64,000 bases of DNA from a virus (lineage: Duplodnaviria > Caudoviricetes). The translations under genes were made by a program, and so were the position numbers. Where the stretch lies: the IMG/VR virus record IMGVR_UViG_3300026121_000008, positions 1 to 64,000 of that record, one strand, 5' to 3'. Below, one piece after another: positions 12-18,275 of the stretch (positions are counted from its first letter, which is position 1; every line of letters starts with the position of its first letter). The notes beneath the pieces were generated by a model, which was not told where the DNA came from, ran no database searches, and worked only from the letters and a program-made list of their open reading frames with translations.

Positions 12-3000
12 GTGGCCTATGACCCCGGTCAGGCACGAGATGCTCATGGGCGATGGACTGAGGCTGGACCACTGGTGGCCTACCACGGGACCGTGGAAAA
101 GCGGCTGGAGAGCATCCTTCGTGAAGGACTCACGAGAGCCCATGCGGGTGAGGCATGGAAAGCGTTCTCCCGGACAGATCGTGTGTATGTGACGACGAGT
201 GAACAGGATGGAAAAAATTGGGCCGAAAATTCAAAGCATCGGCATGAGGACATTGATGACTTGAGGCGAGAGGAACAACTCGCGACCGCTTCTCCCCTTG
301 ACATGCTTGCGGAGCGTCCGGAGCCTCGGGTGACGTCAGAAGTGGCGGTCCTGCTCACCGTGGAGATCCCAGCCTCCGAAGTAGGCAAGCTCGAAGAGGA
401 TCGCTATTTTCCGGGGGAAACAAAACGCACCTTTGATGGTGATATCAAACCGGAGTGGATTACCCGTGCTCAAGTACTCAAGGAAGGAGATCGAGTTGGG
501 GGTAATTGGGAGGATGTCCCTCTCCGGAAGAAAATCGCTAGAGACGGGACGACCATCTATATCGCGTTGTTGCTGAGTGACGACGAAGTCACCAAGTGGG
601 ACGAGCACCAACACCCCCGCGACAAAGAGGGTCAATTCACTGAAGCCGTGGCGGCAAAGGTCGCTGAGGCGGCAAAGGTGATCGCGGACGCCAAGACTGA
701 TGGCCGTCCGGTGTTGTTTCATTCAGGAGATGCCAGTATTGATGCCCATCTCGCCCAAGGTATCGAACCCCGCTTCGGGGGGTGGCTCGAAGAAGTGTTG
801 AGTGGCGCGACGGATGATGACGAGCTTGCGGATCAAATCCGTGAGCAAGACCCGGTCACGTTCTTTTCGACCGAGCCTGATTGGGTCGCCATGAAAGTGG
901 CGCGGGCGATGGGAAAGTTTGTGGGGGATGTCACGCTGGAGGACATCCGGACGCATGGGCAATTGAGCATCATTAGTGTCGCGGCCCGTGATCCGTCTGA
1001 ACGATTTACGGAAGCAGAGCAGGACGCCTTCACCGAGGAAGAGTGGAAACATCAAGAGCGTCTGACGGAGAAGGGTGCAGACCCGGATGATTTTCTCACC
1101 GTGGGCGGGAAGCACCACGAAGAGATCATTCCGCTGGGTGGCACGTCCCGAGGATTTGAGGAGATTCCGTTTGGCGTCGAGCCCAAGGACATCTTCTCGA
1201 AGAGCACTATTGTTCCAGATGTGACGTTGACCGGGGATGCACTGGTGGCGTTTCTGCAAATCCACTACCCCCATCTTCTAGCCCATGTGAAGAAGTGGGA
1301 TGAACAGAAACACCCCCGCGACAAAGAAGGGCAATTTGTAGAGGCGGCTGATACCGTTTTGACCAGTTCATATGATGGTTATCAGCACATGATCGAGATG
1401 AAGACACCGGACGGTCACCTTATCGGTCATGCGAAGCTCCGCATGACTTCTCGTGACTTGGCCGAGTACGACATTCTGCACATCGATCCAAAGTTCCGAG
1501 GCCATGGGTATGGAGAGCACCTTTATCGGGCCATCGCAGACAAAGCGAGAAGACTTGGCGCGAAAAGAATTCTGGGGGATGTAACGTCCGCAGGCGTATT
1601 ACGACTCGGCATTAAGGTGTTAGGGACACCGGAATTCATTGCCGATGCCATTGAGGAGTATACCCTTGAGCAGGCTCTGAAGAAATTGGAGCCACAGGCC
1701 CCCGAAAATGCCGAAGGTGTCATTGATACGGCCAACTATCTTGCTGTGCGCTGGCCGCTTCGGAAGCAAAAGTACGCTATCAAGTGGGACGAAGCTCGAC
1801 ATCCTAGAGACAAACAAGGCCAGTTCGCACACGGGGGTATCACCGAAGTAACCGGGGTGGATTGGGAATCCTTTTACTGGGGTAAAGATTTCAGAGAGCC
1901 TGACGATTACTACTACCACGTCACGTTAGCTCCACACGCTCAACGTATTGTGGAGAACCAAGAACTTACACCGGGTCGAGCGCAGTTTATGGGTCGAGCA
2001 GAACCAGCCGCCCATTCAAAAGGAAACGTCTTTCTGACGGATAGGAATGGAGTGTACTTTTGGGCCAGTCGTGTGCAGGACCATGCGATGGATCAGTACG
2101 ATGATCCCCCGAAGGTGGCTGTGGTTCGTATTCCAAAGCGTTTGGTCCCTGATGTCTCCCCTGACCCGGCAGGCACACGAGATGCGAACGCCCCCGCGTA
2201 TATTGTCAAGGGACCGTTGTCTTTGAAGTGGGATGAGCAAAAGCATCCCCGAGACAAGCAAGGCCAGTTCACCGAGTCCGGAGGGGATGTCGCGGCAGAA
2301 GAAGAAATCTGGCCCATCGAGGGGGGAGGACCAGAACGAAAGAAGTGGAACAAGCTCCTCGTGGTGGCGAAAGACGCCGATGCCGTAATAGAGGGTCTGG
2401 TCAATGCCCAAACGCAGTTGTATCTGCGTCTGAAAGAGAAGTATCAGGTTCACACCCCGGAGGGGTTAGCGGCGTATCTCAAAGATCCGGAATGGGTCGA
2501 GGCGGATGCCAAACGTGAGGCGGCTCAGAAAGTCGTGGATGCTGCCTATGAGGTACTGAATAAGCAAGCCCCCGCCATGCGGAAAGAAGTCGTGACGAAC
2601 CTCGCCGCAGATGTGGCGAAGCGACTCGGCATCGATCCCTCTGTCATCCATGTCGTAGACAAAGAGCCGCGTGAATTCTCCGTGGGAGACAAACAGTTCA
2701 AGGAAGGTGGGCACTACGATCCGCGAGATCTTCAAATTGAAATCAATGCCCGGAATATCGGCTACAACAATGCACCGGGCGTCAAAGGCGTGGTCGCCCA
2801 TGAAATCTCTCACCTCATCTACCATCAGTTGAAGAAAACGGCAGAACAGGAGTTCACTCGATACACGGATCTTGCTATCACCCCGGACGGACAAGGGTAT
2901 ACCGATTGGTACAAGGAACGGTTTGAAACCGTACCGGGATTGTTGTACCAGAAGCAGTTGAAATCTGAATATCGAGCCGAGTTTGCGAAGATGTTCCCCG

Positions 3001-3404
3001 CTTCCGCTGTCATCGCGGGACTCAGTGATGGAGATTTCTTCAAGGGCCTGTCCAATTTCATGATCAAAGAGAACGGGCACAGTGCCTATGCCAAGTCGTA
3101 TTGGGACGAGCAGGCGGTCAAGAACCGAGGGTATGAGCCTGCGGTGAACGAGACCATTGCTGAAGTGACCCGATTTTTAAGCTATCCCAAGTCGTGGCAA
3201 GAGGACCATCAGCCCGACATGCACTCCCCGTGGGTCATTCTGACCGGGAAGATGCACGCATGGTATCGGAAGAAGCAGGATCAGGCGCAGGCCGAGTTAG
3301 ACGCGAATTTGAAGGCCCTCAAAGAGCACCAGCGACAAGAGGCCATTCAAATGGAATTGGAAGCGGAACAAGAACGCCGCGCCCGTCGAGAGCACCACCC
3401 ATGA
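12..3404 (+). CDS. Polyvalent head-cargo polyprotein 1: ART / ART-like / GNAT / ART / zincin modules, each behind a tag (may extend 5' of the window)
   Basis: Five tags (YDPGQARDAHGRWT, then 4x KWDExxHPRDKxGQF). Modules: YHGT..ILREGL..VYVT..DIKPEWI (Tpt1/KptA-like ART); LFHSG..FFST (ART-like, tentative); IDPKFRGHGYG (GNAT motif A); YYHVT..VFLT..VVRIP (ART); HEISH..SAYA..NETIAE (zincin). The frame is open to the window edge. Confidence 0.8.
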   Translation: MAYDPGQARDAHGRWTEAGPLVAYHGTVEKRLESILREGLTRAHAGEAWKAFSRTDRVYVTTSEQDGKNWAENSKHRHEDIDDLRREEQLATASPLDMLAERPEPRVTSEVAVLLTVEIPASEVGKLEEDRYFPGETKRTFDGDIKPEWITRAQVLKEGDRVGGNWEDVPLRKKIARDGTTIYIALLLSDDEVTKWDEHQHPRDKEGQFTEAVAAKVAEAAKVIADAKTDGRPVLFHSGDASIDAHLAQGIEPRFGGWLEEVLSGATDDDELADQIREQDPVTFFSTEPDWVAMKVARAMGKFVGDVTLEDIRTHGQLSIISVAARDPSERFTEAEQDAFTEEEWKHQERLTEKGADPDDFLTVGGKHHEEIIPLGGTSRGFEEIPFGVEPKDIFSKSTIVPDVTLTGDALVAFLQIHYPHLLAHVKKWDEQKHPRDKEGQFVEAADTVLTSSYDGYQHMIEMKTPDGHLIGHAKLRMTSRDLAEYDILHIDPKFRGHGYGEHLYRAIADKARRLGAKRILGDVTSAGVLRLGIKVLGTPEFIADAIEEYTLEQALKKLEPQAPENAEGVIDTANYLAVRWPLRKQKYAIKWDEARHPRDKQGQFAHGGITEVTGVDWESFYWGKDFREPDDYYYHVTLAPHAQRIVENQELTPGRAQFMGRAEPAAHSKGNVFLTDRNGVYFWASRVQDHAMDQYDDPPKVAVVRIPKRLVPDVSPDPAGTRDANAPAYIVKGPLSLKWDEQKHPRDKQGQFTESGGDVAAEEEIWPIEGGGPERKKWNKLLVVAKDADAVIEGLVNAQTQLYLRLKEKYQVHTPEGLAAYLKDPEWVEADAKREAAQKVVDAAYEVLNKQAPAMRKEVVTNLAADVAKRLGIDPSVIHVVDKEPREFSVGDKQFKEGGHYDPRDLQIEINARNIGYNNAPGVKGVVAHEISHLIYHQLKKTAEQEFTRYTDLAITPDGQGYTDWYKERFETVPGLLYQKQLKSEYRAEFAKMFPASAVIAGLSDGDFFKGLSNFMIKENGHSAYAKSYWDEQAVKNRGYEPAVNETIAEVTRFLSYPKSWQEDHQPDMHSPWVILTGKMHAWYRKKQDQAQAELDANLKALKEHQRQEAIQMELEAEQERRARREHHP

Positions 3405-4750
3405 TCCCCACCCCTATCACCATCGAGGGCAAGACCGGCACCGTCGTCTATCTCGATGCCCTCTGGCACCCGGTCCCTCCTGAACGTGCCACCATGGCCC
3501 GTGTCCTTTTCGATGATGGGAGTTCGGCCTTCTTTTTTACGGAGCCCGACACTGTTGAGAAGTTCGACCCCGCCCAACCCCGTGATAAAGACGGGAAGTG
3601 GACACAAGGGTTGCATCTCCAAGGGCCGAAGAGCAAAAAACCAGAACGACTTTCGACGGCTGAGTTTGAGGCGCGGTATCCGGAAGAAAAACGGTTGTAT
3701 CTGGGGGTGACGTCTTCTGCTGCTGCAGAACGCGCCCGTGAAGGGGGCGGGAAAATTGGGGGCACGGGCATGCACATGCAGCAATCGGTGGTCCATGCCC
3801 AAGGTAATGCCCAGCGTGAAGCACGCGATCAAGGGAACGTGCTGCGGTTTGCCATCAAACCGGAAGCGCGGGTGGTGCGATTGCCCCATCGATTGTGGGA
3901 TGCCAGTCCAGAACGGATTGACAAGTGGGTCACAGAGCAGCATGCCGATATTGTGAACGTCGATGACGTGGAATTCATCGTGAAGAATCCAGCGATGGTA
4001 GCGGTCGATTCGCATGACTATACGCTTAGTGAAGCGGTCGTGCTGGATTACGAGCGGAGCGGCTACATACTCGATGAGTATGAAGCAGAGAAAGCGGCCC
4101 TCGCGGCATTACGACAGGCCACGATCCCGTCTTCGGTGCCGTCCCAGACAGACCTTCCTCCCTACCAACAGGCCCGAGCCCTGCTACAGGACGCTGTCGG
4201 GAAAGAGATTCCGGTGGGAGTGGATGATCATCCTGTCGCAATTCGCGCCGCACAGGAGATCGCAGAGGTACTGAAGGAGATGCAGGCCAAGGGCTATACG
4301 ATGCCTCGTGAGATCGAAGTCCGGGCGCAACAGACCCAGATGCCTGCGGGCGAAGCCACGCACGACATTTTGCAGATCAAAGTGCCGGATAACCTTCCCG
4401 ATGATGTCACCCTCGATCAGGCGACTCTGGCGGTCTACGGGGAGGTGGATTATGCCGGGGTTCCCAATTATGTCCCTCGTACGTTCAAGGAGATCGTGGT
4501 TCACGAGATGGGGCATATCAACCGCCGTCCCGCAAAGGTGAGAGAAACACCAGCGGCAGCGAAGGAATTTGCACGGGAACTAAAAGCGATTCACGAGATG
4601 CCCACTGCCGCGAAAGACGTGAGCCGCTATGCGGCACAGAATGCCGAAGAATTTGTGGCGGAGGTCTTCACCAAACTCTATCGCGGGGATACGGTCTCCC
4701 CCAAAGTCATGCGGGTGTATCGTGGGTTGCGGGGAGGAGTCCTCCGATGA
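3401..4750 (+). CDS. Head-cargo protein 2: short N-domain, tag, ART-like module, zincin metallopeptidase
   Basis: ATGA overlap with the upstream stop favours a start at 3401 over 3194. Tag EKFDPAQPRDKDGKWT; RLYLG..GTGMH..EFIVKNP (ART-like, tentative); HEMGH..SRYAAQNAEEFVAE (zincin). Confidence 0.75.
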   Translation: MIPTPITIEGKTGTVVYLDALWHPVPPERATMARVLFDDGSSAFFFTEPDTVEKFDPAQPRDKDGKWTQGLHLQGPKSKKPERLSTAEFEARYPEEKRLYLGVTSSAAAERAREGGGKIGGTGMHMQQSVVHAQGNAQREARDQGNVLRFAIKPEARVVRLPHRLWDASPERIDKWVTEQHADIVNVDDVEFIVKNPAMVAVDSHDYTLSEAVVLDYERSGYILDEYEAEKAALAALRQATIPSSVPSQTDLPPYQQARALLQDAVGKEIPVGVDDHPVAIRAAQEIAEVLKEMQAKGYTMPREIEVRAQQTQMPAGEATHDILQIKVPDNLPDDVTLDQATLAVYGEVDYAGVPNYVPRTFKEIVVHEMGHINRRPAKVRETPAAAKEFARELKAIHEMPTAAKDVSRYAAQNAEEFVAEVFTKLYRGDTVSPKVMRVYRGLRGGVLR

Positions 4751-7700
4751 GTCTTCCTCCATGGCCTGATTGGACGGCTGAGCAGTGGCGGGCTGTCGTG
4801 CAGCCAATTGCACGAGAAGGTGTCGGAGGTCTCACCCGGAAGTTCGATGCCACCCAACACCCCCGAGGAGAGGATGGCCGCTTCATTGAAGCTACCCAAC
4901 CCAGAATCTTCAGTCGAATGACTGATGTTGGCTCCTACATGAGTTGGGGCGAGAAGAAGTGGGGATGGCGTGCGACGGCTGAGGACATACGTTTTGGCGC
5001 GAAGTTGGGAGAAGTCACGGGGAGGCTCCTGACGGGTGAACCCATCCCCCGTGACCAGATCCCCGCGAAGCTCTATCACGTCACCACCAATGCTCCTGCC
5101 GTTGAATCCTCTGGTGTCCTCCTTGGCCTACTGGAAGATGGCGGGATGGGCGGAGGACAAGCCCAAGGCGTGTCGTTTACGTCCAGCCCGGAGGATGCCG
5201 AGGTTATTCAGCGGGAGTTGAAGCGGGCGGTTCATATTGCCCGAGGGGATGTGCAAGGCATCGAAGACTTTGAACGCTATGCCAGAGAAGATGAGCAACG
5301 GGCAGGGCTCCCGAAGGGATCACTGGATGCGGCGTTGACGGAAGTGCGACGAACGTGGGACGTCCAGAAGGATCGTCACAAGCAATATGAGGCCCCTGAC
5401 GAGCAGGAGCGGGTTCGACGCAGTAATCTGGGCGATCTCCTGAACCTCTACCTGTATGGCCGGGAAACGGCCTCAGAGAGAGTGACGGGATCACGAGTGG
5501 AGATTCTCAAGAATCCCATCCTGTTTGGCCAACAGAAACATCTGGCCAAGATCAACCCCGACCACATCCAGATTCTGGAAGCTGATGCCGAGGACATCCC
5601 CGCTGATGCCCTCGTCACCACCGGCTCCGATAAGTTCCTCCATGAGGTCCGAGTCTACGCGGACGTCCCGAGACGCCGGAAAAAGGCCGCATCTGAGACC
5701 GCCCATCCTACCCAGCCCCTTCCCAAAGTTGCCAAAGACGCCAATGCCTTTGATGAGACAAAGCACCCACGAGCCCCCGGAGGCACGGAAGAAGGCGGGC
5801 AATTCACGGAGACGGGACGGTCTGGTGTCCCGACCTCTGACCCTACGCTGGCGAAGCAGGCTAAAGACGGGATTGTGTACGTTGAACGGCTTCTCCCAGA
5901 GGCGGTAAAAACCGCCCGCTATGAAAATGTGTCGGGGACATGGGGGTACTTGACGAAAGAGACGCAGGAGGCCGTTGAACTCGCTTACAAAGAAAAGATT
6001 TACGAGAGCACGTCTCAGCACTTGTTCACCGCAGATTTTGATAATGATCTCAAGATTGCCTTAGCGAGGAAAGAACGAGACGCGATTCGGCAGGAAGGGT
6101 TGAAGCGGGTGAGAGCCCTCTACCCAGACGTCGATCCGACGACGGTGATGCTGAGTCCTGATGCCCCGAAAGAAGCGTCGGGCTACGTGCCGTTAGGGCA
6201 GAGTGAATTACGTCATACCGATGGGTCGCCGCTCAGTGCCAAAGAGTATCGAACTCTTGATCAAGCGTGGTTTCAATCGTTTAAGGATGCACGGGATGAC
6301 GTCTTTAGCCAATTCATGGCGTCCGAGGAATATGCGGCATTACGGGAGCAGCAGGTCAGAAAAACTGTTCACCAACAATGGCAGAATCTCCCCCCTGAAA
6401 CCAAGTACCAGAAGGCCATTGAGATGCGGCAACGAGGAGAGTTGTCGGGGGAGGGGCTTGAAATCCTTGCGAAGGAACCTGAGCACTGGACCACAGGGGT
6501 GGAGCAGGGTGACCACACGGACGAAGACTACGCCCGGACCCATGCGATAGCCCTGAAACTCACCGAACTCCGGATGGACGAGATCCGGAAAGAGCGGGAT
6601 ATTGGCGAGCCGAAGTCGGTGTATTCGATTCGGCCTGCTGCTGATCCAGACGATGGGTTCATAATCACAGACAGTAGTGATGGCACGACGGTGGCGACGG
6701 CGTTGACGCAGGAGGAAGCCTTCCAGCAAATGACGGAATGGCAGGAGCAGGAAAACACACTCCTCTCCTCCAAAGCGGTGATTGAGTCCGTCTGGGAGTC
6801 ATGGAAACGTAAATCCAGTGAGGGCTTGGGCCTGTCTCTGCAACTCGCCGCTGCCCGAGAATTGGGTGGGCACCATCGGATGTCGCCGGAGGAAGTTCAA
6901 GAGGCAGAAAAGCAGGCGAGGGAGCACTTCGGCCAGTATGGCATGGCTACCCTCCAAGCCTATGTGCGTGCCCAATGGGAAGTGACCCAGATGGTCATGC
7001 AGAAGGCGGGGGAGAAAGAGGTCTCCGTCTATCGTGGGCTGATGCTGAGCGGAGATCAGGTCAAGACGACCACGCATGAAGTCGTGGATGAGTCAGGAGC
7101 CTCACTCCGGCCCACGAATGTGAGAACGATCACGAAAACTCCTGCTGACGCAGATTATGTCGCGGGGGAGTACGTGAGTTTTGAGTATCGAGGACATGAG
7201 TTAACAGAGCCGAAAGTCCGCACGACGCCGTTTACATGGGAGGAAGTGGACGCCGCGACGAGAGAAAAAGTGGCCGAGGGGTGGGCTACGATGATCGGCA
7301 CAAAAGAAACCACCCCTGATCAAATCAAAGCGGCGTATGCCGTCCTGAATGATTGGAGCAAACTGCAACTCCTGCAGACGTTGATTACCCGAGGCATTAT
7401 TCCTCTCTATCCGTATGAGAGTGAAGAAGCCACGGTCCAGCGGGGGGTGAAACGGTATTTGGAAGAGATAGAGTACCAGAGCACCTTCACCAAACTTCCC
7501 AATCTCTCGTTGAAGCGAGCGGGTGCCCAATCCACCACCGGCACCCCCGCTATCGCTAATGACTGGGGAGGGGTCGGGGATCTTCCCCCCAACCCCGTGC
7601 GCGTGGTCATCCGGGTACAGGCCCCACCCACATCGGTGCTGTCCCTTCCCGTCTATGGGCAAAATGCTCAGAGTGAGCACGAGACCGTGCTCCTCGGTAC

Positions 7701-9744: not shown

Positions 9745-11396
9745 CCCGAGACATGCGGTCCCTCGTGGCGGAGATCCGGGTGTTGCTCAGGAAGCGGCAC
9801 GTCCCGCCCCACCACGCCATCCTCAAGTATGACCGCAACCAGCCCCGTGGAGCCGCAGGCACCCCGCAGGGCGGGCGTTGGGTCAAGGGGGTCAGTCAGG
9901 GGACGGAGGGGGAAACGAAACGTCTCCAATCGTCTTACCTTCAGCGTAATCAGGCGTCTTACGCGGACATCATGGACGCCCCGATGGGCGAGGGCTTTCA
10001 CAACCGCCCCCGAGGCGTGAACATCCCCGAGCCACCCCCAGATGACCCGGCAGAGAAGATCCGGAACGTCCTCTCCACTGGATCGATCTCCGATAGCGAA
10101 CCCATGGGGGATCAGGGGGCCAATGTCTCCAAGCTGGTCACCCTCGAAGATGGCACCCAAGCGGTCTTCAAGCCTGAAGTCGGGGAGACGTGGCGGACCA
10201 CGTTCTCCAACCGTGATATTCCCAAGTACATCACCAATCGAGAGTTCTCCCTCGCAGAGCGCGAAGCCACCGCCTATGAGGTCTCCGAAGCCTTGGGGGT
10301 GCATCTCGTCCCGGTCACCGTCCTGCGGGAGACCGTCGAAGGCGTCGAGGGGCTGGATGACGACGATGAAAGCGGGTTCGACTCGGATGAGTTGAAAGAC
10401 CAGTATAACGAGTACCGGGACAAACGCCAAGAAGAAGTCATCGATGAAGTCGGAGAAGAGATGTACAACCTCTTCGATGACCATTTGAATGATCTCGACA
10501 AGCGAGTCGATGAGGTGCAAGAGATTTGGGACAAGGTGGCAGAGGAGTACCCCAATCGGGGAGCCGCCCGTGAACATCCTGTGCTGCCGATGGGGTCTGT
10601 GTCCCCGTTTGAACGGAAGGTGCCAGACCCGGTTGATCCGTTGGAACTGTTGAAAGAAGCGGACGTCGATCCGGTCTCCTCGTTGTTACCACAGGAAAGA
10701 AAAGACGTCGAAGCCGCGATTCGGAAGCGATTTGAAGAAGGAGCCGAAGAACTGGGTGCGTTTGATCGGGATGAGGCGCGGGATCACGAGACATATGGGT
10801 ATGACAAGTGGCTCGAAGCGCACCAAGATACCGAAGTCAAGCTCTATGACAAGAAGATCAAGTCCTTCGACTCGTGGGCACAAAGTCAGGGCTACGACAT
10901 CCGAGGTCATGGTCGCGGCCCCAAGAACCCAGATGCCCCGCATCCCAAAGGCGGATCGTTCCAGCACTTCCAAGAGGGTGCTGACAGCTACGGGGACGTG
11001 GATGAGGAGACTGGCCCTCAACTCGCCGTGCTGGACTATGTGCTGGGGACCATGGATCGGCACCACAGCAACCTGATGTTCAAGAACGGACGCCCTATTG
11101 CCATCGACAACGGCTACAGTTTCCCCGGATCGCCGGGGGAGGATGACTTCAAGTTCCGGTCGAATGAAGTGGGGACATGGTTGCGGAGGAGCAGTGACAC
11201 CAACGTACCGGAGGCTCTTCGTGCCACCCTCCACAAGACCATCATGGAGGCGGATTGGCAGGGACTGGTGGACCGCCACCCCAGCATGAGCGATAAGGAA
11301 CGGAAAGCGTTACTGGGCCGGGTGGACAACATGAAACGGGCCTTGCGAACTCGTGAAGGACTGGGCCAGTTGTGGCGGAGTCTCGACCGGATATGA
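9741..11396 (+). CDS. Head-cargo HipA/PI3-PI4-kinase-like protein with an acidic insertion
   Basis: ATGA overlap start. Tag LKYDRNQPRGAAGTPQGGRW; AVFKP, EREATAY, GSFQHF, DYVLGTMDRHHSN, AIDNG kinase motifs. Confidence 0.8.
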   Translation: MTRDMRSLVAEIRVLLRKRHVPPHHAILKYDRNQPRGAAGTPQGGRWVKGVSQGTEGETKRLQSSYLQRNQASYADIMDAPMGEGFHNRPRGVNIPEPPPDDPAEKIRNVLSTGSISDSEPMGDQGANVSKLVTLEDGTQAVFKPEVGETWRTTFSNRDIPKYITNREFSLAEREATAYEVSEALGVHLVPVTVLRETVEGVEGLDDDDESGFDSDELKDQYNEYRDKRQEEVIDEVGEEMYNLFDDHLNDLDKRVDEVQEIWDKVAEEYPNRGAAREHPVLPMGSVSPFERKVPDPVDPLELLKEADVDPVSSLLPQERKDVEAAIRKRFEEGAEELGAFDRDEARDHETYGYDKWLEAHQDTEVKLYDKKIKSFDSWAQSQGYDIRGHGRGPKNPDAPHPKGGSFQHFQEGADSYGDVDEETGPQLAVLDYVLGTMDRHHSNLMFKNGRPIAIDNGYSFPGSPGEDDFKFRSNEVGTWLRRSSDTNVPEALRATLHKTIMEADWQGLVDRHPSMSDKERKALLGRVDNMKRALRTREGLGQLWRSLDRI

Positions 11397-11656: not shown

Positions 11657-11658
11657 CC

Positions 11659-12579
11659 GTGCTGACGATCCTCCCTAAGCCGGTGCAACCAGTTGCACCC
11701 TACCTGTCCGTCCTGAAGTTCAACCCGGACCAGCCCCGCCAACCCGCCGGGTCGGAGCATGGGGGAGAGTTTGCGAAAGAAACGAGCAATCCGACCCATG
11801 CACGACGGGACGAGGTGGAGCAGCTAGGAAAGGACATCTTCGAGGAGGCGCATCGTATCGCTCCCGGTCATGACCGCTCCACGACAGGGGGGTACTCGAT
11901 GTACCATCGGGCGGACGTGAAAGCCCACATCCAAGACGATTTGACGGCCCGCTTGAAGGGACATCCCGCTTTCGCGGATATGGATGAGGAGACGCTCTTG
12001 ACGTGGGTGCAGGGGAAGATCGACTTGTGGGCGGAGACCTCTGGAGACAGTGACCTCGATGCGGCGGTCATGCAGTTGGCGGTCCAACAGGAATTTGGGT
12101 TGACCGGTGCCGCCACAGACCATCTCCAAAAGAACTTGGGATTTCCCCTGACCCTGTCTGGAAAAGAGGCGGACCAGCTTCGCGCCTTCGTGCGGGCGGA
12201 GTACGAGGCCACACAGGCGTGGTTCAAGAAGCGAGGCATCACCCATGTGACGGCTCTCCGAGGCATGGATGATGATCCACGGGATAAGCGATTGGGGTTT
12301 GGGTATGAGACCATCACGATGCAACCCGCGTCGTCATGGGCGGTTGATGTCCAAACGGCGTTCGCGTTCACCACGAATAAATCGAACCCCAAGATTCTCA
12401 CGACCCGTGTCCCGGTAGAACAGGTCTTGAGTACGTGTCTGACCGGGCGGGGCTGTTTGGCAGAAAAAGAAATCCTGTTACTGGGGAAACCGCAACGCGC
12501 CCATATTTTTGGGGTGAGCGGGGACGATTTCTCTCCCGACAGTTCGGATACCAAACGAATCCTGCATTCACTCGAATGA
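11659..12579 (+). CDS. Head-cargo R-S-E ADP-ribosyltransferase
   Basis: Tag LKFNPDQPRQPAGSEHGGEF; TALRG..ASSW..AEKE. QLRAFVRAEYEATQ matches TLQAYVRAQWEVTQ of polyprotein 3. Confidence 0.75.
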   Translation: MLTILPKPVQPVAPYLSVLKFNPDQPRQPAGSEHGGEFAKETSNPTHARRDEVEQLGKDIFEEAHRIAPGHDRSTTGGYSMYHRADVKAHIQDDLTARLKGHPAFADMDEETLLTWVQGKIDLWAETSGDSDLDAAVMQLAVQQEFGLTGAATDHLQKNLGFPLTLSGKEADQLRAFVRAEYEATQAWFKKRGITHVTALRGMDDDPRDKRLGFGYETITMQPASSWAVDVQTAFAFTTNKSNPKILTTRVPVEQVLSTCLTGRGCLAEKEILLLGKPQRAHIFGVSGDDFSPDSSDTKRILHSLE

Positions 12580-15500
12580 ACATTGACGCCACGCTCACCA
12601 ACGCCGACTGGCCCAAGCGCACCCCCGATAAGTTCTCGGATCTGGGCGTCATCGTCCAGAAGTTCCAAGAGACCCAGCACCCCCGTGATACGCGAGGCCG
12701 CTTCACCGAGTCGGCCTCCATCACGGTGACAGGACGCCAGATCGAGGTGGTCAAGCCCGAACGGGCCATTCGTGCCGGGGATAAGCTCGTCCCCCTGAAT
12801 GTCCTCGCCTTCGATCAGGAGTTCCAGAAAGAGCCGGGATTCTATCTGGGAGTGGGGGGACAGGGCGGCATCGGCACCCGCTATACCCGCTTCGGAGAGT
12901 TTCTCTCCCAGCATGACAGCATCGAAGCCGCCGAGGTGTCGGTCCACTCGGATGGCCGGATTGGCTTCACCAACGGACGGCACCGGTATGCGTGGCTCCG
13001 GGATCAGGGGTTGACGTCCATCCCGGTGGCCATGACACCTGAGTCCGTCCGGAATGCCAAGAAATTTGGCTATCTTGCCGCCGTCAAGCTGGCATGGGAT
13101 GAGAGTGATCACCCCCGTGACAAAGAGGGGCAGTTCACGACCTTCTACCATGGCACGCTGCAGGAGCAATTGGACTCCATCAAAGAGCAGGGCTTGCAAA
13201 CTAACCGGTCAGGGCTGGCATGGCCGGGTCTGAGTCAACCGGGGACGATCTATCTGGGACGCACGAAAGAAGCGGCTATGGGGTGGGCGGAGTCCACGAC
13301 GCTCCGGCTGGAGTGGAAGTTTGAGAATCCCACAGCCGTGGTGCTGGAAGTGCGAGTGCCCGATGACGTGTTGGCCAAGTCCCAGCGAACCGCCGAGCCT
13401 GAAGGCAACCTGCGGGTCTTCCAAGATATTCCACCCGAGTGGATTGTGGGGGTGACTGTTGGGCGAAGCCATGATCAAATTCTTGGGGTGACGAGAGCCC
13501 GGATGCGACGGGAAGAAGCCAAGCATATTGTGCCTCCTGTCATTACCAAATCTGAGACGTTCTATGTAGGGCTGGTGATTGAAGGAGGGCGAGTTCAGAA
13601 ATGGGACGAATCCCAGCATCCGCGTGATGAAAAAGGCCAGTTCAGTGACGCCGGTAGGAGTGTCGGGGACTACGTTCACTCCTCAGAGCCGCTGACCACA
13701 GAAGAGGAAGATCGGTTCACGGAGTTCGAGGAGGCATGGGCCGGAGGCGTGGCGGACTTCGGGGATGCGATGGCCGCGACCTACGTCCAGCAACTCCCGA
13801 AATACAACGCCTACCGCACGAAGCTCGTGGCAGAGTTGGAGCAGAATTACGGCCCCAAGATCACCGTCTACCGGGCCGTCAGTCAGGAGGCCCTCGAAGA
13901 GATGGAAGCCGGAACATGGCAAGGCCCCATTGCCACGACCACCAATCCTGAACTGGCCAAGAAGTGGGTGAACTTCGCCCGGAACAAGAACACGACCCTC
14001 CATATCCTCAAGACCACCATCAGCCCCAAGCTAGCGGTGATCCGGGGCAAGGCCGAGGAGAGTGAGATCGTCATCGATGGGGATTGGGTCAGCTTCCATG
14101 AGTGGGAGCACGTCGGCACGGCGAAGAAACGTCAGTGGGAGGAATCCAAACATCCTCGTCAAGGCGGGGGTTCTTCCCATGGCGGCGAGTTCGTGGAGGC
14201 TCTCCACAGCCCCGGTGATGCCCTCTTCTCCCTCCTGAACAACGAGAACGCCACCATTGATCGAGGGGATGTCCGGACCCTCTTGGAGAAGGCGGCAGAG
14301 CTAGAGGACACAGAAGACCCGAACCTCCTGCACTTGCATGTGGATGGCATGGACGTCTTCGACAAGACGGGACTGGGGATCAAGCGGGAACACATGCCCC
14401 AGATCCCGAGAGCCCATCGCGCCCAGTTCATGAAGGAGATGAAAGACATTGGGGTGGAGATTGTCAAGGAGTGGGTAGACCCGCTCACCCTCAAACCTAC
14501 CCAAGATGAGATCTCCGCCCGCAATGCGGGGCAGAAGATGCGGGAGTACGAGAAGAAGAAGGACAAAGCCTTCCCACCCCTCCTCGTCTCGAAGGAAGGC
14601 CGTCTCCTCGATGGCCACCACCACTGGGCCATGATGGCAGGACTGGCGGTGGATGCGCCCGGTGTGAAAGTCCCGATCTACCGGCTCCGGATCAGCACGA
14701 AGCGGGCACTGGCCCTGATGCACGCCTACGACAAGAAATACAAGATAGAGCGGAAGGCACTGGGCCAGAAGTGGGATGAGTCCAGACATTCCCGCGATCA
14801 AGAGGGACAATTCACTGAGTCTGGTGCCCCACCCAAGCCAAGCAAGAGGGGGTATCATGACATTACGCCAGAGAGGCATAAGCGGTATCACGTCTACGAT
14901 GAGAACGATAACCTTGTCGATAAGACGTATGATTCTGATGAAGCCCAACGCTGGGCCGATCAGCGTAATGGCTATGTGGAGGATATAGGAGAGGAAAAAC
15001 CGAAGAAAAAAACTGCAAAGAAAGCCGATCCAGCCACTGGTCGTTACGTCACCCCCTTCGTGTCCTTCGAGAAGCAGGGAGATGAATCTCTCCGCATGAT
15101 CGCTAGCCTGAACTCCAGCCGCTTGGCCACATGGGGGTTCACGGCAGAAGCCGAAGTACTCGGCATGGCCCGGTACCGCTTGACGGCAGTCCTCGATGGA
15201 CGCACCAGCAATTTCTGTCGGATGGTGGATGGCAAAGTCTTCGAGGTCCAAGATGCCCGCCGGAAGGTGATCGAAGTCTTGAATGTCCAGAATCCGGAAG
15301 ACTTGAGAACAGTACAGCCGTGGCCCAAGCAGGACCGGGCGTCTATGGCGGAGTTTAGGCAGATGGACCCAGAGGAGTTGACGCAACTGGGCCTGCATAT
15401 CCCCCCTTACCATCCCCACTGTCGGACGCTGCTCCGGCATGTGCCGTCGAGTGTGGGAGAGCCCACCGAGCCTGTTCCGACGATTCCAGTAGAGGCCGAG

Positions 15501-16235
15501 GTGTTCCAGCCCGTGACGGCGGACGACCTGAGAGAACTCGGCGTCGAGGCGACTCCAGAGGATGTTGCCCTGTGGAACGCCCACATCGGGATGACCCCGG
15601 CGGAACTCCTCTCGAAGCTCTCCGGGATGCCACCCCAAGAGGTGATGACCAAGGGCAAAGGGGTCGGAGCCAATCCCATCAGGTTCGATGAGGCGGGCAA
15701 CATCGGGTTCAACGTCCGGGGAGCCACACCACAAGGGCTGGAGTTCAAGCTCAATGCTCTCCTCGATCCGTTCACCAGCACCTACTATCTGACTCAAGCG
15801 GACCTGATTGCAGGCAACCCCAAGGCGGAACTGGCCTTCCTGAAGAACCTGTTTGGCTCCCTGATTGAGATGGGGCTGAAGTCGTCTGCGACGTCCGTGG
15901 CCGTAGGTGTGGCCGGGAGCACGATCCCCTACGCCAAGATGGGGTTCCTCCCGGACGAGTTGGAGTGGGACAGCCTCCGCACGTATGCCTTGAATGAGAT
16001 CGACACGGGTGCCCTCAAACCCATCCTCGACTCGCTGGCTCCTGCGGACCAGCAGTTGGTGATTCACCTCCTCCAAGACCGATCTGTGGGCGCAATGTCG
16101 GCACTGGTGGAGTTGCCGTTCACGTATGAAGGGAAGACCATTGGGGAGTGGTTGTTCGGAGAGGCGACTGGAACGTGGGCCTTGGACTTGACGGATGATT
16201 TGATGGTGGCACAGGCCAAGGAGTATCTGACATGA
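12576..16235 (+). CDS. MuF (SPP1 gp7-like) head-morphogenesis polyprotein: ParB-N / ART / ART / ParB-N / small domain / MuF / GNAT-like C-terminus
   Basis: ATGA overlap start at 12576; five tags. TNGRHR and LDGHHH (ParB-N); FYHGT..DIPPEWI and VYRA..ATTT..EESE (ARTs); AVLDGRTSNFCR..PPYHPHCR (MuF); YAKMGF (GNAT-like, tentative). Confidence 0.85.
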   Translation: MNIDATLTNADWPKRTPDKFSDLGVIVQKFQETQHPRDTRGRFTESASITVTGRQIEVVKPERAIRAGDKLVPLNVLAFDQEFQKEPGFYLGVGGQGGIGTRYTRFGEFLSQHDSIEAAEVSVHSDGRIGFTNGRHRYAWLRDQGLTSIPVAMTPESVRNAKKFGYLAAVKLAWDESDHPRDKEGQFTTFYHGTLQEQLDSIKEQGLQTNRSGLAWPGLSQPGTIYLGRTKEAAMGWAESTTLRLEWKFENPTAVVLEVRVPDDVLAKSQRTAEPEGNLRVFQDIPPEWIVGVTVGRSHDQILGVTRARMRREEAKHIVPPVITKSETFYVGLVIEGGRVQKWDESQHPRDEKGQFSDAGRSVGDYVHSSEPLTTEEEDRFTEFEEAWAGGVADFGDAMAATYVQQLPKYNAYRTKLVAELEQNYGPKITVYRAVSQEALEEMEAGTWQGPIATTTNPELAKKWVNFARNKNTTLHILKTTISPKLAVIRGKAEESEIVIDGDWVSFHEWEHVGTAKKRQWEESKHPRQGGGSSHGGEFVEALHSPGDALFSLLNNENATIDRGDVRTLLEKAAELEDTEDPNLLHLHVDGMDVFDKTGLGIKREHMPQIPRAHRAQFMKEMKDIGVEIVKEWVDPLTLKPTQDEISARNAGQKMREYEKKKDKAFPPLLVSKEGRLLDGHHHWAMMAGLAVDAPGVKVPIYRLRISTKRALALMHAYDKKYKIERKALGQKWDESRHSRDQEGQFTESGAPPKPSKRGYHDITPERHKRYHVYDENDNLVDKTYDSDEAQRWADQRNGYVEDIGEEKPKKKTAKKADPATGRYVTPFVSFEKQGDESLRMIASLNSSRLATWGFTAEAEVLGMARYRLTAVLDGRTSNFCRMVDGKVFEVQDARRKVIEVLNVQNPEDLRTVQPWPKQDRASMAEFRQMDPEELTQLGLHIPPYHPHCRTLLRHVPSSVGEPTEPVPTIPVEAEVFQPVTADDLRELGVEATPEDVALWNAHIGMTPAELLSKLSGMPPQEVMTKGKGVGANPIRFDEAGNIGFNVRGATPQGLEFKLNALLDPFTSTYYLTQADLIAGNPKAELAFLKNLFGSLIEMGLKSSATSVAVGVAGSTIPYAKMGFLPDELEWDSLRTYALNEIDTGALKPILDSLAPADQQLVIHLLQDRSVGAMSALVELPFTYEGKTIGEWLFGEATGTWALDLTDDLMVAQAKEYLT

Positions 16236-16478: not shown

Positions 16479-16976
16479 ATGCCCCTGCATATGTCCTCGG
16501 TGGTGTCTCGTCGCAAGCTCGACCATCCGCATGAGAAAACGCCGGTCAAGATCATGCCTCCTGACTTCGTCCGTGTCCTGAAGTACAACCCGAACCATGG
16601 CCCGGATGGACGATTTTCGTCAGGACGTGGGGGCGGGGGTGGGGGCACAAGCTCTTATAGTGGGGCGAAGTTTTCTGTGCCTGCGGGGTGGCCGCAACCG
16701 GGACGAGGGAGGAGTGTCGAAGCTCGCGCTTTCGGAGCCGTGCCGATGCCCGTTCATGAGAACCCCTACGCGAAGTCAGGACCGGGAGCCGTGCGGATGC
16801 CCACGTACGAAGGTGTCGCCAAGCCCGGAGCTAAAGGGCCGGTGCCGATGCCCGATCATTCGACGGGGGTCTACAAACCTGCCGTGAATCCCGCGAAACT
16901 CAGCCTGCGACAGGATTACCGAGAGTATAGAGAGCCCCGGAGCTTTGCGACTCGTGGCACCTCCTTCGCGGGGTAA
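16479..16976 (+). CDS. Tagged low-complexity head-cargo protein
   Basis: Tag VLKYNPNHGPDGRF, a Gly run, then three G[AP]V[PR]MP repeats. Confidence 0.6.
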   Translation: MPLHMSSVVSRRKLDHPHEKTPVKIMPPDFVRVLKYNPNHGPDGRFSSGRGGGGGGTSSYSGAKFSVPAGWPQPGRGRSVEARAFGAVPMPVHENPYAKSGPGAVRMPTYEGVAKPGAKGPVPMPDHSTGVYKPAVNPAKLSLRQDYREYREPRSFATRGTSFAG

Positions 16977-16982
16977 CTGCTG

Positions 16983-17273
16983 ATGCCGCTGACTTCTGGT
17001 CTGACCACCCGCCGATTGATTGCGAAAGGCGAAGGCCACATCCATTCGGACAAGTGGCATCGGTGCATCGAGCACGTCAAAGCCAAGGGCAGTGGCGTTG
17101 ATCCCTATGCGGTCTGTACCTTCAGTATCGGCTATAACGAATCGGTGAACCCTGAACACCAGACGCCCGGTCCTCACTCGTCCCGAGATACCCGGCGGTT
17201 CAAGCGGCGCAAGGAACGCCAAGAGGCAGAGAAGCACGATCTCTCCTACGCCGACATTTTGAAGTTTACGTAA
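16983..17273 (+). CDS. Small hypothetical protein with a two-Cys motif
   Basis: KWHRCIEHVK..PYAVC; shares the MPLTxGxTTR leader with the next gene. Confidence 0.6.
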   Translation: MPLTSGLTTRRLIAKGEGHIHSDKWHRCIEHVKAKGSGVDPYAVCTFSIGYNESVNPEHQTPGPHSSRDTRRFKRRKERQEAEKHDLSYADILKFT

Positions 17274-17276
17274 CCC

Positions 17277-18275
17277 ATGCCGCTCACCGAGGGGTTCACC
17301 ACCCGTCAAAAAATGTGCATGGGGCCTCCCAAACAGGGGCATCTGGAGAAAAAGAAGAAGAAACTGAAGACACCGTCGTATGCAGTGGCGTTGAAGTTCA
17401 ACAAGAATCATGATCCTGAATCGGGTCGATTTTCTTCCGGTGGGGGAGGCACGTCTACCAAGGACACCGATTTGGACGAGTTCACGTCTGAATCCCTGTC
17501 TCCCGCCCAGCGCACCATGCAGGCCGAGTTAGCCAAGCAGGCCAAGAAGCCGGTCTACAAGGTCAAGACGATTGAAGAAGCCGTGGTCCGAGTGCTCAAA
17601 GGGGATAACGTCGAACTGCAGGACACGAAAGCCGTGCATACCGTGCTCCAAAAGTTAGGCGAGATGGCCATCAAAGCGAAGCAGTTGAACAAGAAGGCCC
17701 CGAATTTCGACCCCTGTACGATCACGGTGAAGGGGACCAGCCTCTTTTGCTCACAAAAAATCAAGACGGATGAGTTTCCTCATGGCATCCCCCGGATTGA
17801 GATGCCGCAGTTCAAGTCCAAGAACCCGATACCGGGCAGCGAAGCGGACAAGCTCCCCCGAGACGACAACGATGAAGTCGATGCGACGGGGAAGTTTCTG
17901 GAACATCTGGCCGAGTCTGGCGTCAAGAGCAATCCCAACGCCACGATCCTCGCCCGAAAACTGAAAGCGAGTCAAGCCGAGATGGAAGGGGCCAAAGTCG
18001 CGGGCATGATGCTCTCGAACCGTGACCCGAAGAAAGCCAAGATCACGGTGTCCCGAGACGGCTATGTGGTCGATGGCCACCATACGTGGGCCGCAGCCGT
18101 AGGACGGGATGCCGAAGACGGCAACCTCGACAATGATATGGAAATGGACGTGGTGATGGTCGATCTACCCATGTCCCAGATTTACCATCTCTCCGTCGCG
18201 TGGACCAAGAAATATGGGTTGCCTGCCGCGAGTGTGAAAAAGTTTGATTGGGTTTCCATGCTAACGTTCGCGTAG
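17277..18275 (+). CDS. Tagged ParB-N-like head-cargo protein
   Basis: Tag ALKFNKNHDPESGRF; GIPRIEMPQ..LKASQ..VSRDGYVVDGHHTW, paralogous to the module at 14.2-14.75 kb. Confidence 0.7.
   Translation: MPLTEGFTTRQKMCMGPPKQGHLEKKKKKLKTPSYAVALKFNKNHDPESGRFSSGGGGTSTKDTDLDEFTSESLSPAQRTMQAELAKQAKKPVYKVKTIEEAVVRVLKGDNVELQDTKAVHTVLQKLGEMAIKAKQLNKKAPNFDPCTITVKGTSLFCSQKIKTDEFPHGIPRIEMPQFKSKNPIPGSEADKLPRDDNDEVDATGKFLEHLAESGVKSNPNATILARKLKASQAEMEGAKVAGMMLSNRDPKKAKITVSRDGYVVDGHHTWAAAVGRDAEDGNLDNDMEMDVVMVDLPMSQIYHLSVAWTKKYGLPAASVKKFDWVSMLTFA

What the first reader, a model, noticed from the sequence alone, without database searches (positions are those of the whole stretch)
12..18275. Tag-and-cleave capsid cargo system: 18 copies of one peptide tag, nearly each heading a different effector module
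Seen: a motif K-[WFY]-[DNQE]-x3-[HQ]PR-x3-G-x-[FW] starts near 18, 594, 1293, 1782, 2226, 3560, 4840, 5749, 7882, 9825, 11716, 12660, 13095, 13599, 14136, 14769, 16581 and 17394, across eight genes. It comes in three forms: short (KWDEQKHPRDKEGQF), long with a 5-aa insert (KFDEAKHPRESAGSAEGGQF) and minimal (KYNPNHGPDGRF). It sits at the N-side of modules (ART, GNAT, zincin, kinase, ParB-N), and I did not find it beyond 18.3 kb. Known: MuF/gp7 proteins and phage polyvalent proteins carry such domains, and T4 internal proteins use a capsid-targeting peptide removed by the prohead protease. Inference: the tag is a portable capsid-loading or ejection signal, so each released module keeps its own address label and about 17 enzymes are delivered with the DNA.
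Basis: partly seen in the sequence, partly recalled or inferred. Interest (0 to 1): 0.95.

Follow-up and report, generated by a model that had tools for sequence, protein, structure and literature searches.

The report
Conserved junction tag on phage cargo modules
A 12-20-residue peptide really does stand in front of 18 protein modules encoded between the portal and head-protease genes of this 112-kb phage. The same undescribed peptide marks module boundaries in over a thousand other phage and prophage protein families, so it is probably a loading and/or cutting signal for proteins carried in the capsid, but no function has been measured.

Summary
Observation confirmed. All 18 copies are present, in frame, in eight + strand genes. 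A profile of them scores 28-52 bits on each copy, against 7.8 bits for the best other hit in six frames. The window is the first 64 kb of a circular 111.9-kb phage contig. Gene A starts just after the portal gene, and two more tagged genes lie at 95 kb, outside the head block.

The tag is widespread. 1,685 protein clusters pass E<=1e-3 (up to 22 copies per protein), in viral contigs and in prophages of at least seven phyla. It heads domain-sized modules (median spacing 242 aa) and is almost never C-terminal. It co-occurs with ART-PolyVal, MuF, portal, GNAT, NUDIX and toxin domains.

Synonymous codons between copies are random, so selection acts on the peptide. In three close relatives, homology blocks start and stop at tags, so tag plus module is the unit of exchange.

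Interpretation partly supported. Head-gene context and N-side position hold. Packaging, cleavage, "keeps its label" and "17 enzymes" are untested.

Best reading (about 0.45): a docking or loading tag of phage polyvalent/MuF-portal cargo proteins, probably with processing nearby. I found no paper or family model describing it. This scan had already noted the same HPRD-type tag on other DNA.

The parts
3..3404 (+). Gene A (its 5' 139 codons lie at genome 111525-111942, across the circular join, directly after the portal gene). Layout: N-domain, then 5 tags heading ART-like, unknown, GNAT, unknown and zincin-like (HExxH) modules.
15..56 (+). tag 1 (Q-A-R variant, W-ending)
   Evidence: 28.8 bits
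594..638 (+). tag 2, short HPR form
1293..1337 (+). tag 3, short HPR form, heads the GNAT module
1782..1826 (+). tag 4, short HPR form
   Evidence: also the only part of gene A hit by phrog_30637
2226..2270 (+). tag 5, short HPR form, heads the zincin-like module
3401..4750 (+). Gene B (ATGA overlap with A): 53-aa leader, tag, 382-aa module with an HExxH motif near the C-terminus
3560..3601 (+). tag 6, QPR form
4747..9744 (+). Gene C (ATGA overlap with B): leader, tag, 278-aa module, then two tag + 600-680-aa units that are 42% identical paralogues
4840..4884 (+). tag 7, short HPR form
5746..5805 (+). tag 8, long form (8-residue loop)
7882..7941 (+). tag 9, long form
9741..11396 (+). Gene D (ATGA overlap with C): 28-aa leader, tag, PI3/PI4-kinase-like module
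9825..9881 (+). tag 10, long QPR form
11659..12579 (+). Gene E: 19-aa leader, tag, 268-aa module of unknown family
11716..11772 (+). tag 11, long QPR form
12576..16235 (+). Gene F (ATGA overlap with E): leader, then five tags heading PFIN-like, ART-like, unknown, ParB-like and MuF modules
12660..12704 (+). tag 12, short HPR form
13092..13136 (+). tag 13, short HPR form; the ART-like first strand follows after 2 residues
13599..13643 (+). tag 14, short HPR form
14133..14192 (+). tag 15, long form, heads the ParB-like module
14769..14813 (+). tag 16 (H-S-R variant), heads the MuF module
16479..16976 (+). Gene G: 34-aa leader, minimal tag, Gly/Pro-rich 120-aa tail
16581..16616 (+). tag 17, minimal form
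   Evidence: (28.6 bits)
16983..17273 (+). Gene H, untagged; shares the M-P-L...T-T-R N-terminus with G and I
17277..18275 (+). Gene I: 39-aa leader, minimal tag, ParB-N-like module (phrog_2859)
17394..17432 (+). tag 18, minimal form
   Evidence: (34.5 bits)
18575..19162 (+). Prohead protease, XkdF type (Peptidase_S78_2); candidate processing enzyme; no tag
19168..20289 (+). 373-aa head protein (scaffold or decoration candidate, phrog_27672), conserved 56-61% in relatives; no tag
20320..21264 (+). Major capsid protein (phrog_1623), 88-92% identical in three relatives; downstream limit of the cargo block

Best explanation
What is shown. The peptide is a conserved short linear motif: hydrophobic-K-[W/F/Y]-[D/N]-(E-x-x-H or P-x-Q)-P-R, then a 3- or 8-residue loop, then G-[R/Q/K]-[F/W], usually followed by a Gly-rich linker. 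It heads each cargo unit of phage 'polyvalent' proteins and of portal/MuF-linked toxins. In this phage about 20 kb between the portal gene and the XkdF-type head protease encodes eight such proteins, four of them multi-module chains. Two further tagged genes sit after the tail-fibre gene. The motif is real, widespread and under peptide-level selection. It lies on the N-side of modules, in head-gene context. Tag plus module is the evolutionary cassette.

What is inferred. The tag is a docking handle. A conserved component of the assembling head (portal/MuF vertex, scaffold, or the packaged DNA) recognises it, so that any protein carrying it, in cis or in trans, is taken into the procapsid. The multi-module chains are then cut near the tags by the head protease and/or their own zincin modules, so that separate enzymes leave with the DNA. 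Whether the tag stays on the module it heads is unknown.
For: Reality and specificity: 20 genomic copies at 27-52 bits against 7.8 bits for background.

Selection on the peptide: identical-codon fraction at conserved residues is 0.47 against 0.44 expected, and the longest shared DNA run is 19 nt.

Spread: 1,685 representative proteins at E<=1e-3, 342 at E<=1e-10, up to 22 copies per protein. There are 195 copies in 45 source stretches (the window, loci of two encoding contigs and 42 viral-contig loci), always co-directional. Prophage copies occur in Alphaproteobacteria, Actinomycetota, Bacillota, Chloroflexota, Planctomycetota, Cyanobacteria and Myxococcota.

Position: median spacing is 242 aa. 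The tag is near the N-terminus in 85 of 150 proteins and near the C-terminus in 5 of 150.

Head context: portal, then cargo, then protease and capsid genes here. In this phage and three relatives with 73-92% identical portal and capsid proteins, 44 of 49 tags lie between those genes, while tag counts vary (18, 13, 5, 8).

Fusions: tags occur inside portal C-terminal extensions and in proteins with MuF, ART-PolyVal, 2H, NUDIX, zeta-toxin and portal Pfam domains.

More than a separator: free-standing tagged proteins exist. The 216-aa ART-like protein has a 24-aa leader. Mycobacterium phage Predator gp14 and its Nocardia phage P3.1 homologue start with the tag at residues 3-5, where there is nothing to cut off. 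At the 95-kb locus, relatives keep leader plus tag but swap the module behind it, as in polymorphic toxins with a conserved trafficking head.

Cassette behaviour: 63 of 141 internal homology-block ends fall within 12 aa of a tag, against 20.8 expected. Modules are inserted, deleted and re-ordered exactly at tags.

Information content and structure: the motif carries 30-50 bits, far more than known head-protease sites need. AlphaFold on a 133-row tag alignment gives pLDDT about 87 over the core, with a turn and a bridged loop.

Processing candidates: the XkdF protease lies next door. HExxH motifs are 8-fold enriched in tagged proteins (102 against 12.5 expected).
Against: - There are no virion proteomics, cleavage data or binding data for any tagged protein, and I found none in the literature.
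- Modules already fused to portal or MuF would not need their own loading label, yet they carry one.
- The tag is conserved across phages whose portals belong to different Pfam families. A portal docking site would have to be unusually conserved, so DNA, a host factor or an intrinsic function fit as well.
- Cargo-position proteins without a tag exist (Sixama gp75), and the closest cultured MuF relative, DLP3, has no tag.
- The Lys before the aromatic residue is present in only 21-63% of copies, so a Lys-specific cut there cannot be general.
- In the context of its module the tag is modelled with low confidence (pLDDT 32-57).
- An earlier scan note on the related N-P-Y-H-D variant records that its bold reading fell on later checking.
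Confidence: 0.45

Rival explanations
1. Processing site only. The tag is the recognition element for a protease (the XkdF-type head protease, the zincin modules of the cargo proteins themselves, or both). Its sole role is to let polyproteins be cut into separate enzymes. Loading is achieved by other means, such as fusion to MuF or portal, or the N-domain of gene A.
For: - The tag sits at every module junction, including between portal or MuF and fused cargo, where a loading label would be redundant.
- A Gly-rich flexible linker follows it.
- A head protease gene is adjacent.
- HExxH modules are 8-fold enriched, matching the zincin-processing idea of Iyer et al. 2017.
Against: - Free-standing proteins carry the tag after a 0-50-aa leader. 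In Predator gp14 and the P3.1 homologue it starts at residue 3-5, so nothing needs separating.
- A 15-20-residue, 30-50-bit motif is much richer than known head-protease sites (established knowledge: T4 gp21 L/I-x-E, phiKZ S/A/G-x-E).
- The same motif occurs with very different phage lineages and portal families, and many loci show no zincin.
- DLP3 has the same protease type and no tag.
Confidence: 0.2
2. Post-injection or ejection signal. The tag acts after assembly. It could be a handle that lets each unit be threaded out through the portal and tail. Alternatively it could be a motif recognised in the newly infected cell by a conserved host component (protease, chaperone, DNA or RNA polymerase, nucleoid) that releases, activates or localises the modules.
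For: - The motif is nearly the same in phages and prophages of at least seven bacterial phyla with unrelated portal families. This argues for a partner more conserved than phage head proteins.
- Iyer et al. 2017 consider processing after injection for polyvalent proteins.
- Tagged prophage proteins end in interbacterial-toxin domains (Tox-REase-5, deaminase) that must act in a target cell.
Against: - No candidate partner was identified.
- The strict head-gene context is equally explained by loading.
- No tag hit was found in conjugative plasmids, although that search had low sensitivity.
- Purely inferential.
Confidence: 0.15
3. Structural or evolutionary joint. The tag is a small self-folding spacer that insulates neighbouring domains during folding. 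Its conserved coding sequence serves as the seam at which modules are swapped. It has no trafficking role.
For: - Homology blocks among relatives begin and end at tags, and modules are re-ordered there.
- The first and last aromatic residues co-vary (W with F, Y/F with W).
- AlphaFold predicts a compact turn.
Against: - Copies share no long identical DNA (19 nt at most) and synonymous sites are random. Recombination homology is therefore not what is conserved.
- An insulator would not be needed at the extreme N-terminus of single-module proteins.
- Ordinary multidomain proteins do not need a 30-50-bit conserved spacer.
- Breakpoints at tags also follow from any model in which tag plus module is the selectable unit.
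Confidence: 0.1

Closest known systems
Phage-type polyvalent proteins (Iyer, Burroughs, Anand, de Souza, Aravind 2017, PMC5512222)
   Same: Chains of 2-15 unrelated effector domains (ART, GNAT, zincin peptidase, kinase, ParB-like, 2H, NUDIX) are encoded beside virion late genes and often fused to MuF or portal. They are predicted to be packaged and injected, with zincins proposed as processing enzymes. Tagged database proteins carry that paper's own Pfam families (ART-PolyVal PF18760, Kinase-PolyVal PF18762).
   Different: A text search of that paper for motif, linker, glycine, spacer and boundary terms found no description of a recurring inter-domain peptide. No Pfam or NCBIfam model covers the tag. 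The new element is the tag and its rule of position.
MuF- and portal-fused polymorphic toxins of prophages (Zhang et al. 2012, PMC3482391; Jamet et al. 2017, PMC5576092)
   Same: Both have a conserved head-associated N-terminal part and a variable C-terminal toxin. Tagged prophage proteins found here end in Tox-REase-5 or deaminase domains, or follow a portal domain. At the 95-kb locus, leader plus tag is kept while the module is swapped.
   Different: In gene F of the window MuF is the last module, not the first. Most tagged proteins here have only a short leader and no MuF. Neither paper mentions the motif in the passages searched.
Capsid-targeting sequence of phage T4 internal proteins and Alt, removed by the gp21 prohead protease (my own knowledge; reviewed in PMC9026906 and PMC9958956, listed but not read)
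   Same: It shares the idea of a short portable peptide that takes otherwise unrelated proteins, including an ART, into the prohead and is linked to protease processing.
   Different: The T4 peptide is a single extreme N-terminal peptide of about 10-20 residues ending in an L/I-x-E site. The tag here is repeated internally, lies 0-55 residues from N-termini, and has no sequence similarity. The protease is XkdF-type (Peptidase_S78_2), not T4 gp21-type. Neither targeting nor removal has been shown here.
Earlier notes of this scan on other DNA (e1-1099761/2, e1-3660317, e1-5895919; related variant e1-3065813)
   Same: They describe the same H-P-R-D / G-R-F type peptide heading cargo modules after portal genes or fused to portal.
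   Different: Those are unreviewed AI notes on other genomes. This window is the densest case I have seen (18 + 2 copies). It also adds relatives that allow a breakpoint test.

Membership tests
Phage-type polyvalent proteins (Iyer et al. 2017) | Two or more unrelated effector or enzymatic domains in one polypeptide | tested here: met
   Gene A has ART-like modules, GNAT (Pfam 39 bits, cut-off 20.7) and a zincin-like HExxH module. Gene F has PFIN-like, ART-like, ParB-like and MuF modules.
Phage-type polyvalent proteins (Iyer et al. 2017) | Encoded among virion late genes | tested here: met
   The portal gene (phrog_12) lies immediately upstream. XkdF protease, capsid, tail and tape-measure genes lie downstream.
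Phage-type polyvalent proteins (Iyer et al. 2017) | Zincin-like metallopeptidase hub domain | tested here: inconclusive
   HExxH motifs are present in genes A and B. SprT-like (18 bits, cut-off 25.6) and ATLF (14 bits) matches are below Pfam cut-offs. HExxH is 8-fold enriched in tagged proteins at large.
Phage-type polyvalent proteins (Iyer et al. 2017) | Fusion to, or neighbourhood of, the MuF head protein | tested here: met
   The last module of gene F matches Phage_Mu_F at 25.5 bits (below the 29.6 cut-off). It is supported by TIGR01641, several head PHROGs (E down to 1.6e-9) and tblastn at 1e-46 to the MuF/ParB gene of phage DLP3.
T4-type capsid-targeting sequence | Single peptide at the extreme N-terminus | tested here: not met
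   In the window, 10 of 18 copies are internal. The other 8 lie 19-53 residues from the start of their genes.
T4-type capsid-targeting sequence | Removed by a gp21-type prohead protease at L/I-x-E | tested here: not met
   The protease is Peptidase_S78_2 (XkdF), E 1.2e-22. The tag has no conserved L/I-x-E. Actual cleavage cannot be tested with these tools.
T4-type capsid-targeting sequence | Necessary and sufficient for packaging of a passenger protein | not testable with these tools
   This needs tag-reporter fusions and virion analysis.
MuF polymorphic toxins (Jamet et al. 2017) | N-terminal MuF domain followed by a variable C-terminal toxin | tested here: not met
   In gene F, MuF follows the five tagged units instead of preceding them. 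Other tagged database proteins do combine MuF with toxin or effector domains.
MuF polymorphic toxins (Jamet et al. 2017) | Cognate immunity gene next to the toxin | not tested
   No immunity candidate was examined.
Any curated family model covering the tag itself | Match of the tag region to a Pfam, NCBIfam or PHROG model | tested here: not met
   No Pfam or NCBIfam match overlaps a tag. Only two uncharacterised or mis-named PHROG profiles include it as part of longer proteins: phrog_30637, and phrog_595 'head maturation protease'.

The most novel reading that the evidence does not exclude
The tag is a near-universal, portable address label. Tailed phages of many bacterial phyla use it to load any protein, in cis or in trans, into the procapsid and deliver it with the DNA. 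Its partner is a conserved feature of the portal vertex or the packaged DNA. If so, a 15-residue peptide would suffice to turn arbitrary proteins into injected cargo. The thousands of tagged modules would then be a ready-made catalogue of first-minute host-takeover and anti-defence enzymes.
Probability: 0.3. Interest if true: 0.85.

Novelty: new variant of a known kind. Interest (0 to 1): 0.66.

Why it matters
Polyvalent and MuF/portal-fused phage proteins are thought to be injected with the DNA. How such varied cargo is recognised, loaded and separated is not known outside T4 and a few other models.

A single conserved peptide stands at the head of every unit, in phages and prophages of many phyla, and behaves as the seam of module exchange. 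That turns the question into something testable: one peptide to mutate, fuse to reporters, pull down with, and map by N-terminomics.

It also gives a sequence handle for listing candidate packaged effectors (ARTs, acetyltransferases, kinases, nucleases, toxins) in metagenomes. If the loading role holds, it is a simple tool for putting chosen proteins into phage particles in laboratory strains.

Tried and rejected
- Chance or repeat artefact: rejected. There is a clear score gap, all copies are in frame in long ORFs, and synonymous sites are random.
- Recent duplication or gene conversion as the source of similarity: rejected. Gene C is the exception: its two large units are true paralogues at 42% identity.
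- Tag as part of the fold of the following domain: not supported. The same tag heads unrelated folds. AlphaFold models it with low confidence next to the ART-like module, but with a moderately confident compact turn on its own.
- Trailing rather than heading modules: rejected by the N/C asymmetry. Physically, though, the tag abuts the previous module and is followed by a linker.
- tblastn with 25-29-aa tags is very insensitive, with few hits in phages and only marginal ones in plasmids. Absence from plasmids or cultured phages is therefore weak evidence.
- Foldseek of the ART-like model gave nothing significant. A PDB profile search gave only weak hits, but all were ART-superfamily.
- The ESM Atlas gave nothing for the conserved 139-aa N-domain.
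- Literature searches for the motif strings and for capsid-targeting, MuF or cargo terms found no description.
- I did not test which protease family co-occurs with the tag across loci.

Full report
**1. Setting**

The window is the first 64 kb of a single 111,942-bp virus contig. Its two ends overlap by 12 nt, in frame with the terminal ORFs, so the contig is circular or permuted. The gene that appears open at window position 3 starts at genome 111525. It overlaps the end of a portal gene (109652-111532, phrog_12).

Downstream of the finding lie:
- an XkdF-type head protease (18575-19162; Peptidase_S78_2, E 1.2e-22);
- a 373-aa head protein;
- the major capsid protein (20320-21264, phrog_1623);
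- the major tail and tape-measure genes.

The finding therefore fills the whole interval between the portal and head protease genes. Genes A-B-C-D and E-F are joined by ATGA stop/start overlaps.

**2. The observation**

All 18 sites exist, in frame, in eight genes (A, B, C, D, E, F, G, I). Gene H is untagged.

A profile built from the copies scores 28-52 bits on each. The best other match in all six frames of the entire genome is 7.8 bits.

The same search found two further copies at genome 95039 and 95692. They stand 24-26 residues into a 216-aa ART-like gene and a 413-aa gene that follow a tail-fibre gene. 'Nothing beyond 18.3 kb' is therefore true of the window but not of the phage.

The three forms are real. 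The short and long forms differ by a 5-residue insert in the loop between P-R and G. Among 628 database instances that loop is 3 residues in 508 and 8 in 107.

**3. Not a DNA repeat**

Between the nine short-form copies, codons for identical degenerate residues are the same in 47% of comparisons. Codon usage alone predicts 44%. The longest shared nucleotide run between any two tag regions is 19 nt. The peptide is what is conserved.

**4. Anatomy of the tag**

Across the 150 best database proteins the consensus has these parts:
- a short hydrophobic stretch and often K;
- an aromatic residue, then D or N;
- either E-x-x-H or P-x-Q, then P-R;
- a loop (mostly D-x-x);
- G-[R/Q/K]-[F/W], then T/A/S;
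- a run rich in Gly.

Two sub-types are coupled. The H-P-R type has W first and F last. The Q-P-R type has Y/F first and W last.

AlphaFold on a 133-row alignment of tags alone gives pLDDT about 87 over the core, with a helical turn and a bridged loop. Next to its ART-like module, with a shallow alignment, the tag is modelled at pLDDT 32-57. I read it as a short linear motif with some local structure, not as part of the neighbouring folds.

**5. Position rule**

The 150 best proteins hold 695 tags:
- median spacing is 242 aa, with a 5th percentile of 112 aa;
- the first tag is within 60 aa of the N-terminus in 85 proteins;
- 60 aa or fewer follow the last tag in only 5 proteins.

The tag therefore heads domain-sized units.

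In the window every gene has a 19-53-aa untagged leader before its first tag, and the leaders are not alike. Physically the tag abuts the last strand of the preceding module and is followed by the linker. Whether a cut would leave it on the module it heads cannot be said.

**6. Modules**

Above curated cut-offs:
- GNAT;
- a PI3/PI4-kinase-like domain.

Below cut-off or from other libraries:
- zincin-like, with HExxH motifs in A and B;
- MuF (also TIGR01641, head PHROGs and 1e-46 to the phage DLP3 MuF/ParB gene);
- PFIN-like;
- ParB-like (phrog_2859).

The modules that begin with an aromatic-H-G-T strand gave only weak matches, but every one was to the ART superfamily: Tpt1/KptA, exotoxin A, cholix and PARP. 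Foldseek on the low-confidence model found nothing.

Several modules have no match, including the two 600-680-aa paralogous units of gene C (42% identity). The count of 'about 17 enzymes' is not supported.

**7. Spread**

The tag profile finds 1,685 representative proteins (50% clusters) at E<=1e-3 against 1.84 billion. Of these, 342 pass 1e-10 and 18 pass 1e-30, with up to 22 copies in a 7,334-aa protein. Single-copy proteins cannot reach that threshold, so this is a lower bound.

Tagged proteins carry ART-PolyVal, Kinase-PolyVal, Phage_Mu_F, 2H ligase-like, ADPrib_exo_Tox, GNAT, NUDIX, zeta-toxin and three portal Pfam families.

One DNA pattern for the H-P-R form hit 42 IMG/VR stretches. Together with the window and the loci of two encoding contigs, these 45 source stretches hold 195 tags in all, always on one strand per stretch.

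One pattern for the Q-P-R form hit more than 120 places in prokaryote genomes of at least seven phyla. There it is mostly a single tag in a 200-570-aa protein. Of ten sampled proteins:
- three end in Tox-REase-5;
- one ends in a deaminase;
- one follows a portal domain;
- one carries DUF7178;
- four have no Pfam match.

In one metagenomic phage the portal gene itself carries two tags in its C-terminal extension, followed by three tagged cargo genes.

Among cultured phages:
- Gordonia phage Sixama gp73, the first gene after portal, has one tag at residues about 24-38. Its 1,285-aa ART protein has none.
- Mycobacterium phage Predator gp14 and its Nocardia phage P3.1 homologue begin with the tag at residue 3-5. 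Both are annotated as maturation proteases but are K/R/A-rich basic proteins.
- Phage DLP3, the closest cultured relative by MuF, has portal, ParB/MuF, protease and capsid genes with no tag.

**8. Relatives and the cassette test**

Three complete IMG/VR genomes share 73-81% identical portal proteins and 88-92% identical capsid proteins with this phage.

| Genome | Tags between portal and capsid genes |
|---|---|
| This phage | 18 |
| G001 | 13 |
| G002 | 5 |
| G003 | 8 |

Five further tags lie 14-18 kb upstream of the portal, as in this genome. In total 44 of 49 tags lie in the portal-capsid interval.

The 139-aa N-domain of gene A, the zincin-like module, the kinase, ParB and MuF are shared. 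Other modules are private or shared with one relative.

Homology blocks start and stop at tags:
- Relative to G003, gene A has four extra tag+module units, and both flanking tags align to the single tag of the relative.
- In gene F two units are replaced between tags relative to G003.
- The same two units occur in the opposite order in G001.

Of 141 internal block ends, 63 lie within 12 aa of a tag, against 20.8 expected. The ends are not independent, so the p-value is only indicative.

At the 95-kb locus the relatives keep leader plus tag but have a different module behind it. Tag plus module is therefore the unit of exchange.

**9. Mechanism**

For a docking or loading role:
- The head-gene context, the fusions to portal and MuF and the polymorphic-toxin-like architecture all fit a label.
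- Free-standing tagged proteins exist, and some have the tag at the very N-terminus.
- The motif carries high information content.

For processing near the tag:
- The tag occurs at every junction, even behind portal and MuF.
- A flexible linker follows it.
- The protease gene is adjacent.
- HExxH is 8-fold enriched in tagged proteins.

I therefore favour a combined reading at about 0.45: a loading handle with cutting nearby.

The near-identity of the tag across phages with unrelated portal families means the partner might instead be DNA, a host component, or nothing at all (an intrinsic function). Those rivals stay open. Nothing here shows packaging, cleavage or delivery.

**10. Known or new**

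The proteins are members of the known class of phage polyvalent proteins and of MuF/portal-linked toxins. The tag itself is not covered by any Pfam or NCBIfam model.

I found no description of it in Iyer et al. 2017, Zhang et al. 2012 or Jamet et al. 2017, nor in full-text searches for the motif strings or related terms. The library lacks most subscription journals, so this is absence in what was searched.

This scan has already noted the same H-P-R-D-type peptide on other DNA. A bold reading of a related variant later fell. I therefore rate it a new variant of a known kind, interest 0.66.

Noticed in passing
window 1-12 and genome 111931-111942: The contig ends overlap by 12 nt in frame, so the record is circular or permuted. 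Gene A really starts at genome 111525, overlapping the end of the portal gene (109652-111532).
   Followed up: yes
genome 94973-96861 (L001:5974-7862), outside the window: Two more tagged genes (a 216-aa ART-like gene and a 413-aa gene of unknown family) sit after the tail-fibre gene and before kinase and DNA polymerase genes. In relatives G001 and G003 the leader plus tag is kept but the module behind it differs.
   Followed up: partly
window 16479, 16983, 17277: Genes G, H and I all begin M-P-L-(T/H)-x-G/S-x-T-T/V-R-like. This second shared N-terminal peptide is present even on untagged gene H.
   Followed up: no
L002:11526-11942 plus window 3-14: The 139-aa N-domain of gene A is the best conserved piece of the cargo block (76-83% identity in three relatives, always first after portal). 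It has no Pfam, PHROG or Atlas match and is a candidate portal-proximal anchor.
   Followed up: partly
window 5809-9741: The two large units of gene C are 42% identical paralogues over about 460 aa. The relative G001 has one related unit.
   Followed up: partly
L049:6995-7756 (Mycobacterium phage Predator gp14) and L050:6992-7702 (Nocardia phage P3.1): These genes are annotated as capsid maturation protease. They are K/R/A-rich basic proteins that start with the tag, so the annotation looks doubtful.
   Followed up: no
database-wide: The first and last aromatic residues of the tag co-vary with sub-type: W...F in the H-P-R type and Y/F...W in the Q-P-R type. This could mean the two residues pack together, or could simply reflect two lineages.
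   Followed up: partly
genome 106370-107356 (L001:17371-18357): A transposase-like gene (phrog_4285, E 5e-45) lies between the DNA polymerase and portal genes of this phage.
   Followed up: no
window 3401, 4747, 9741, 12576: ATGA stop/start overlaps link genes A-B-C-D and E-F, suggesting translational coupling of the cargo genes.
   Followed up: partly
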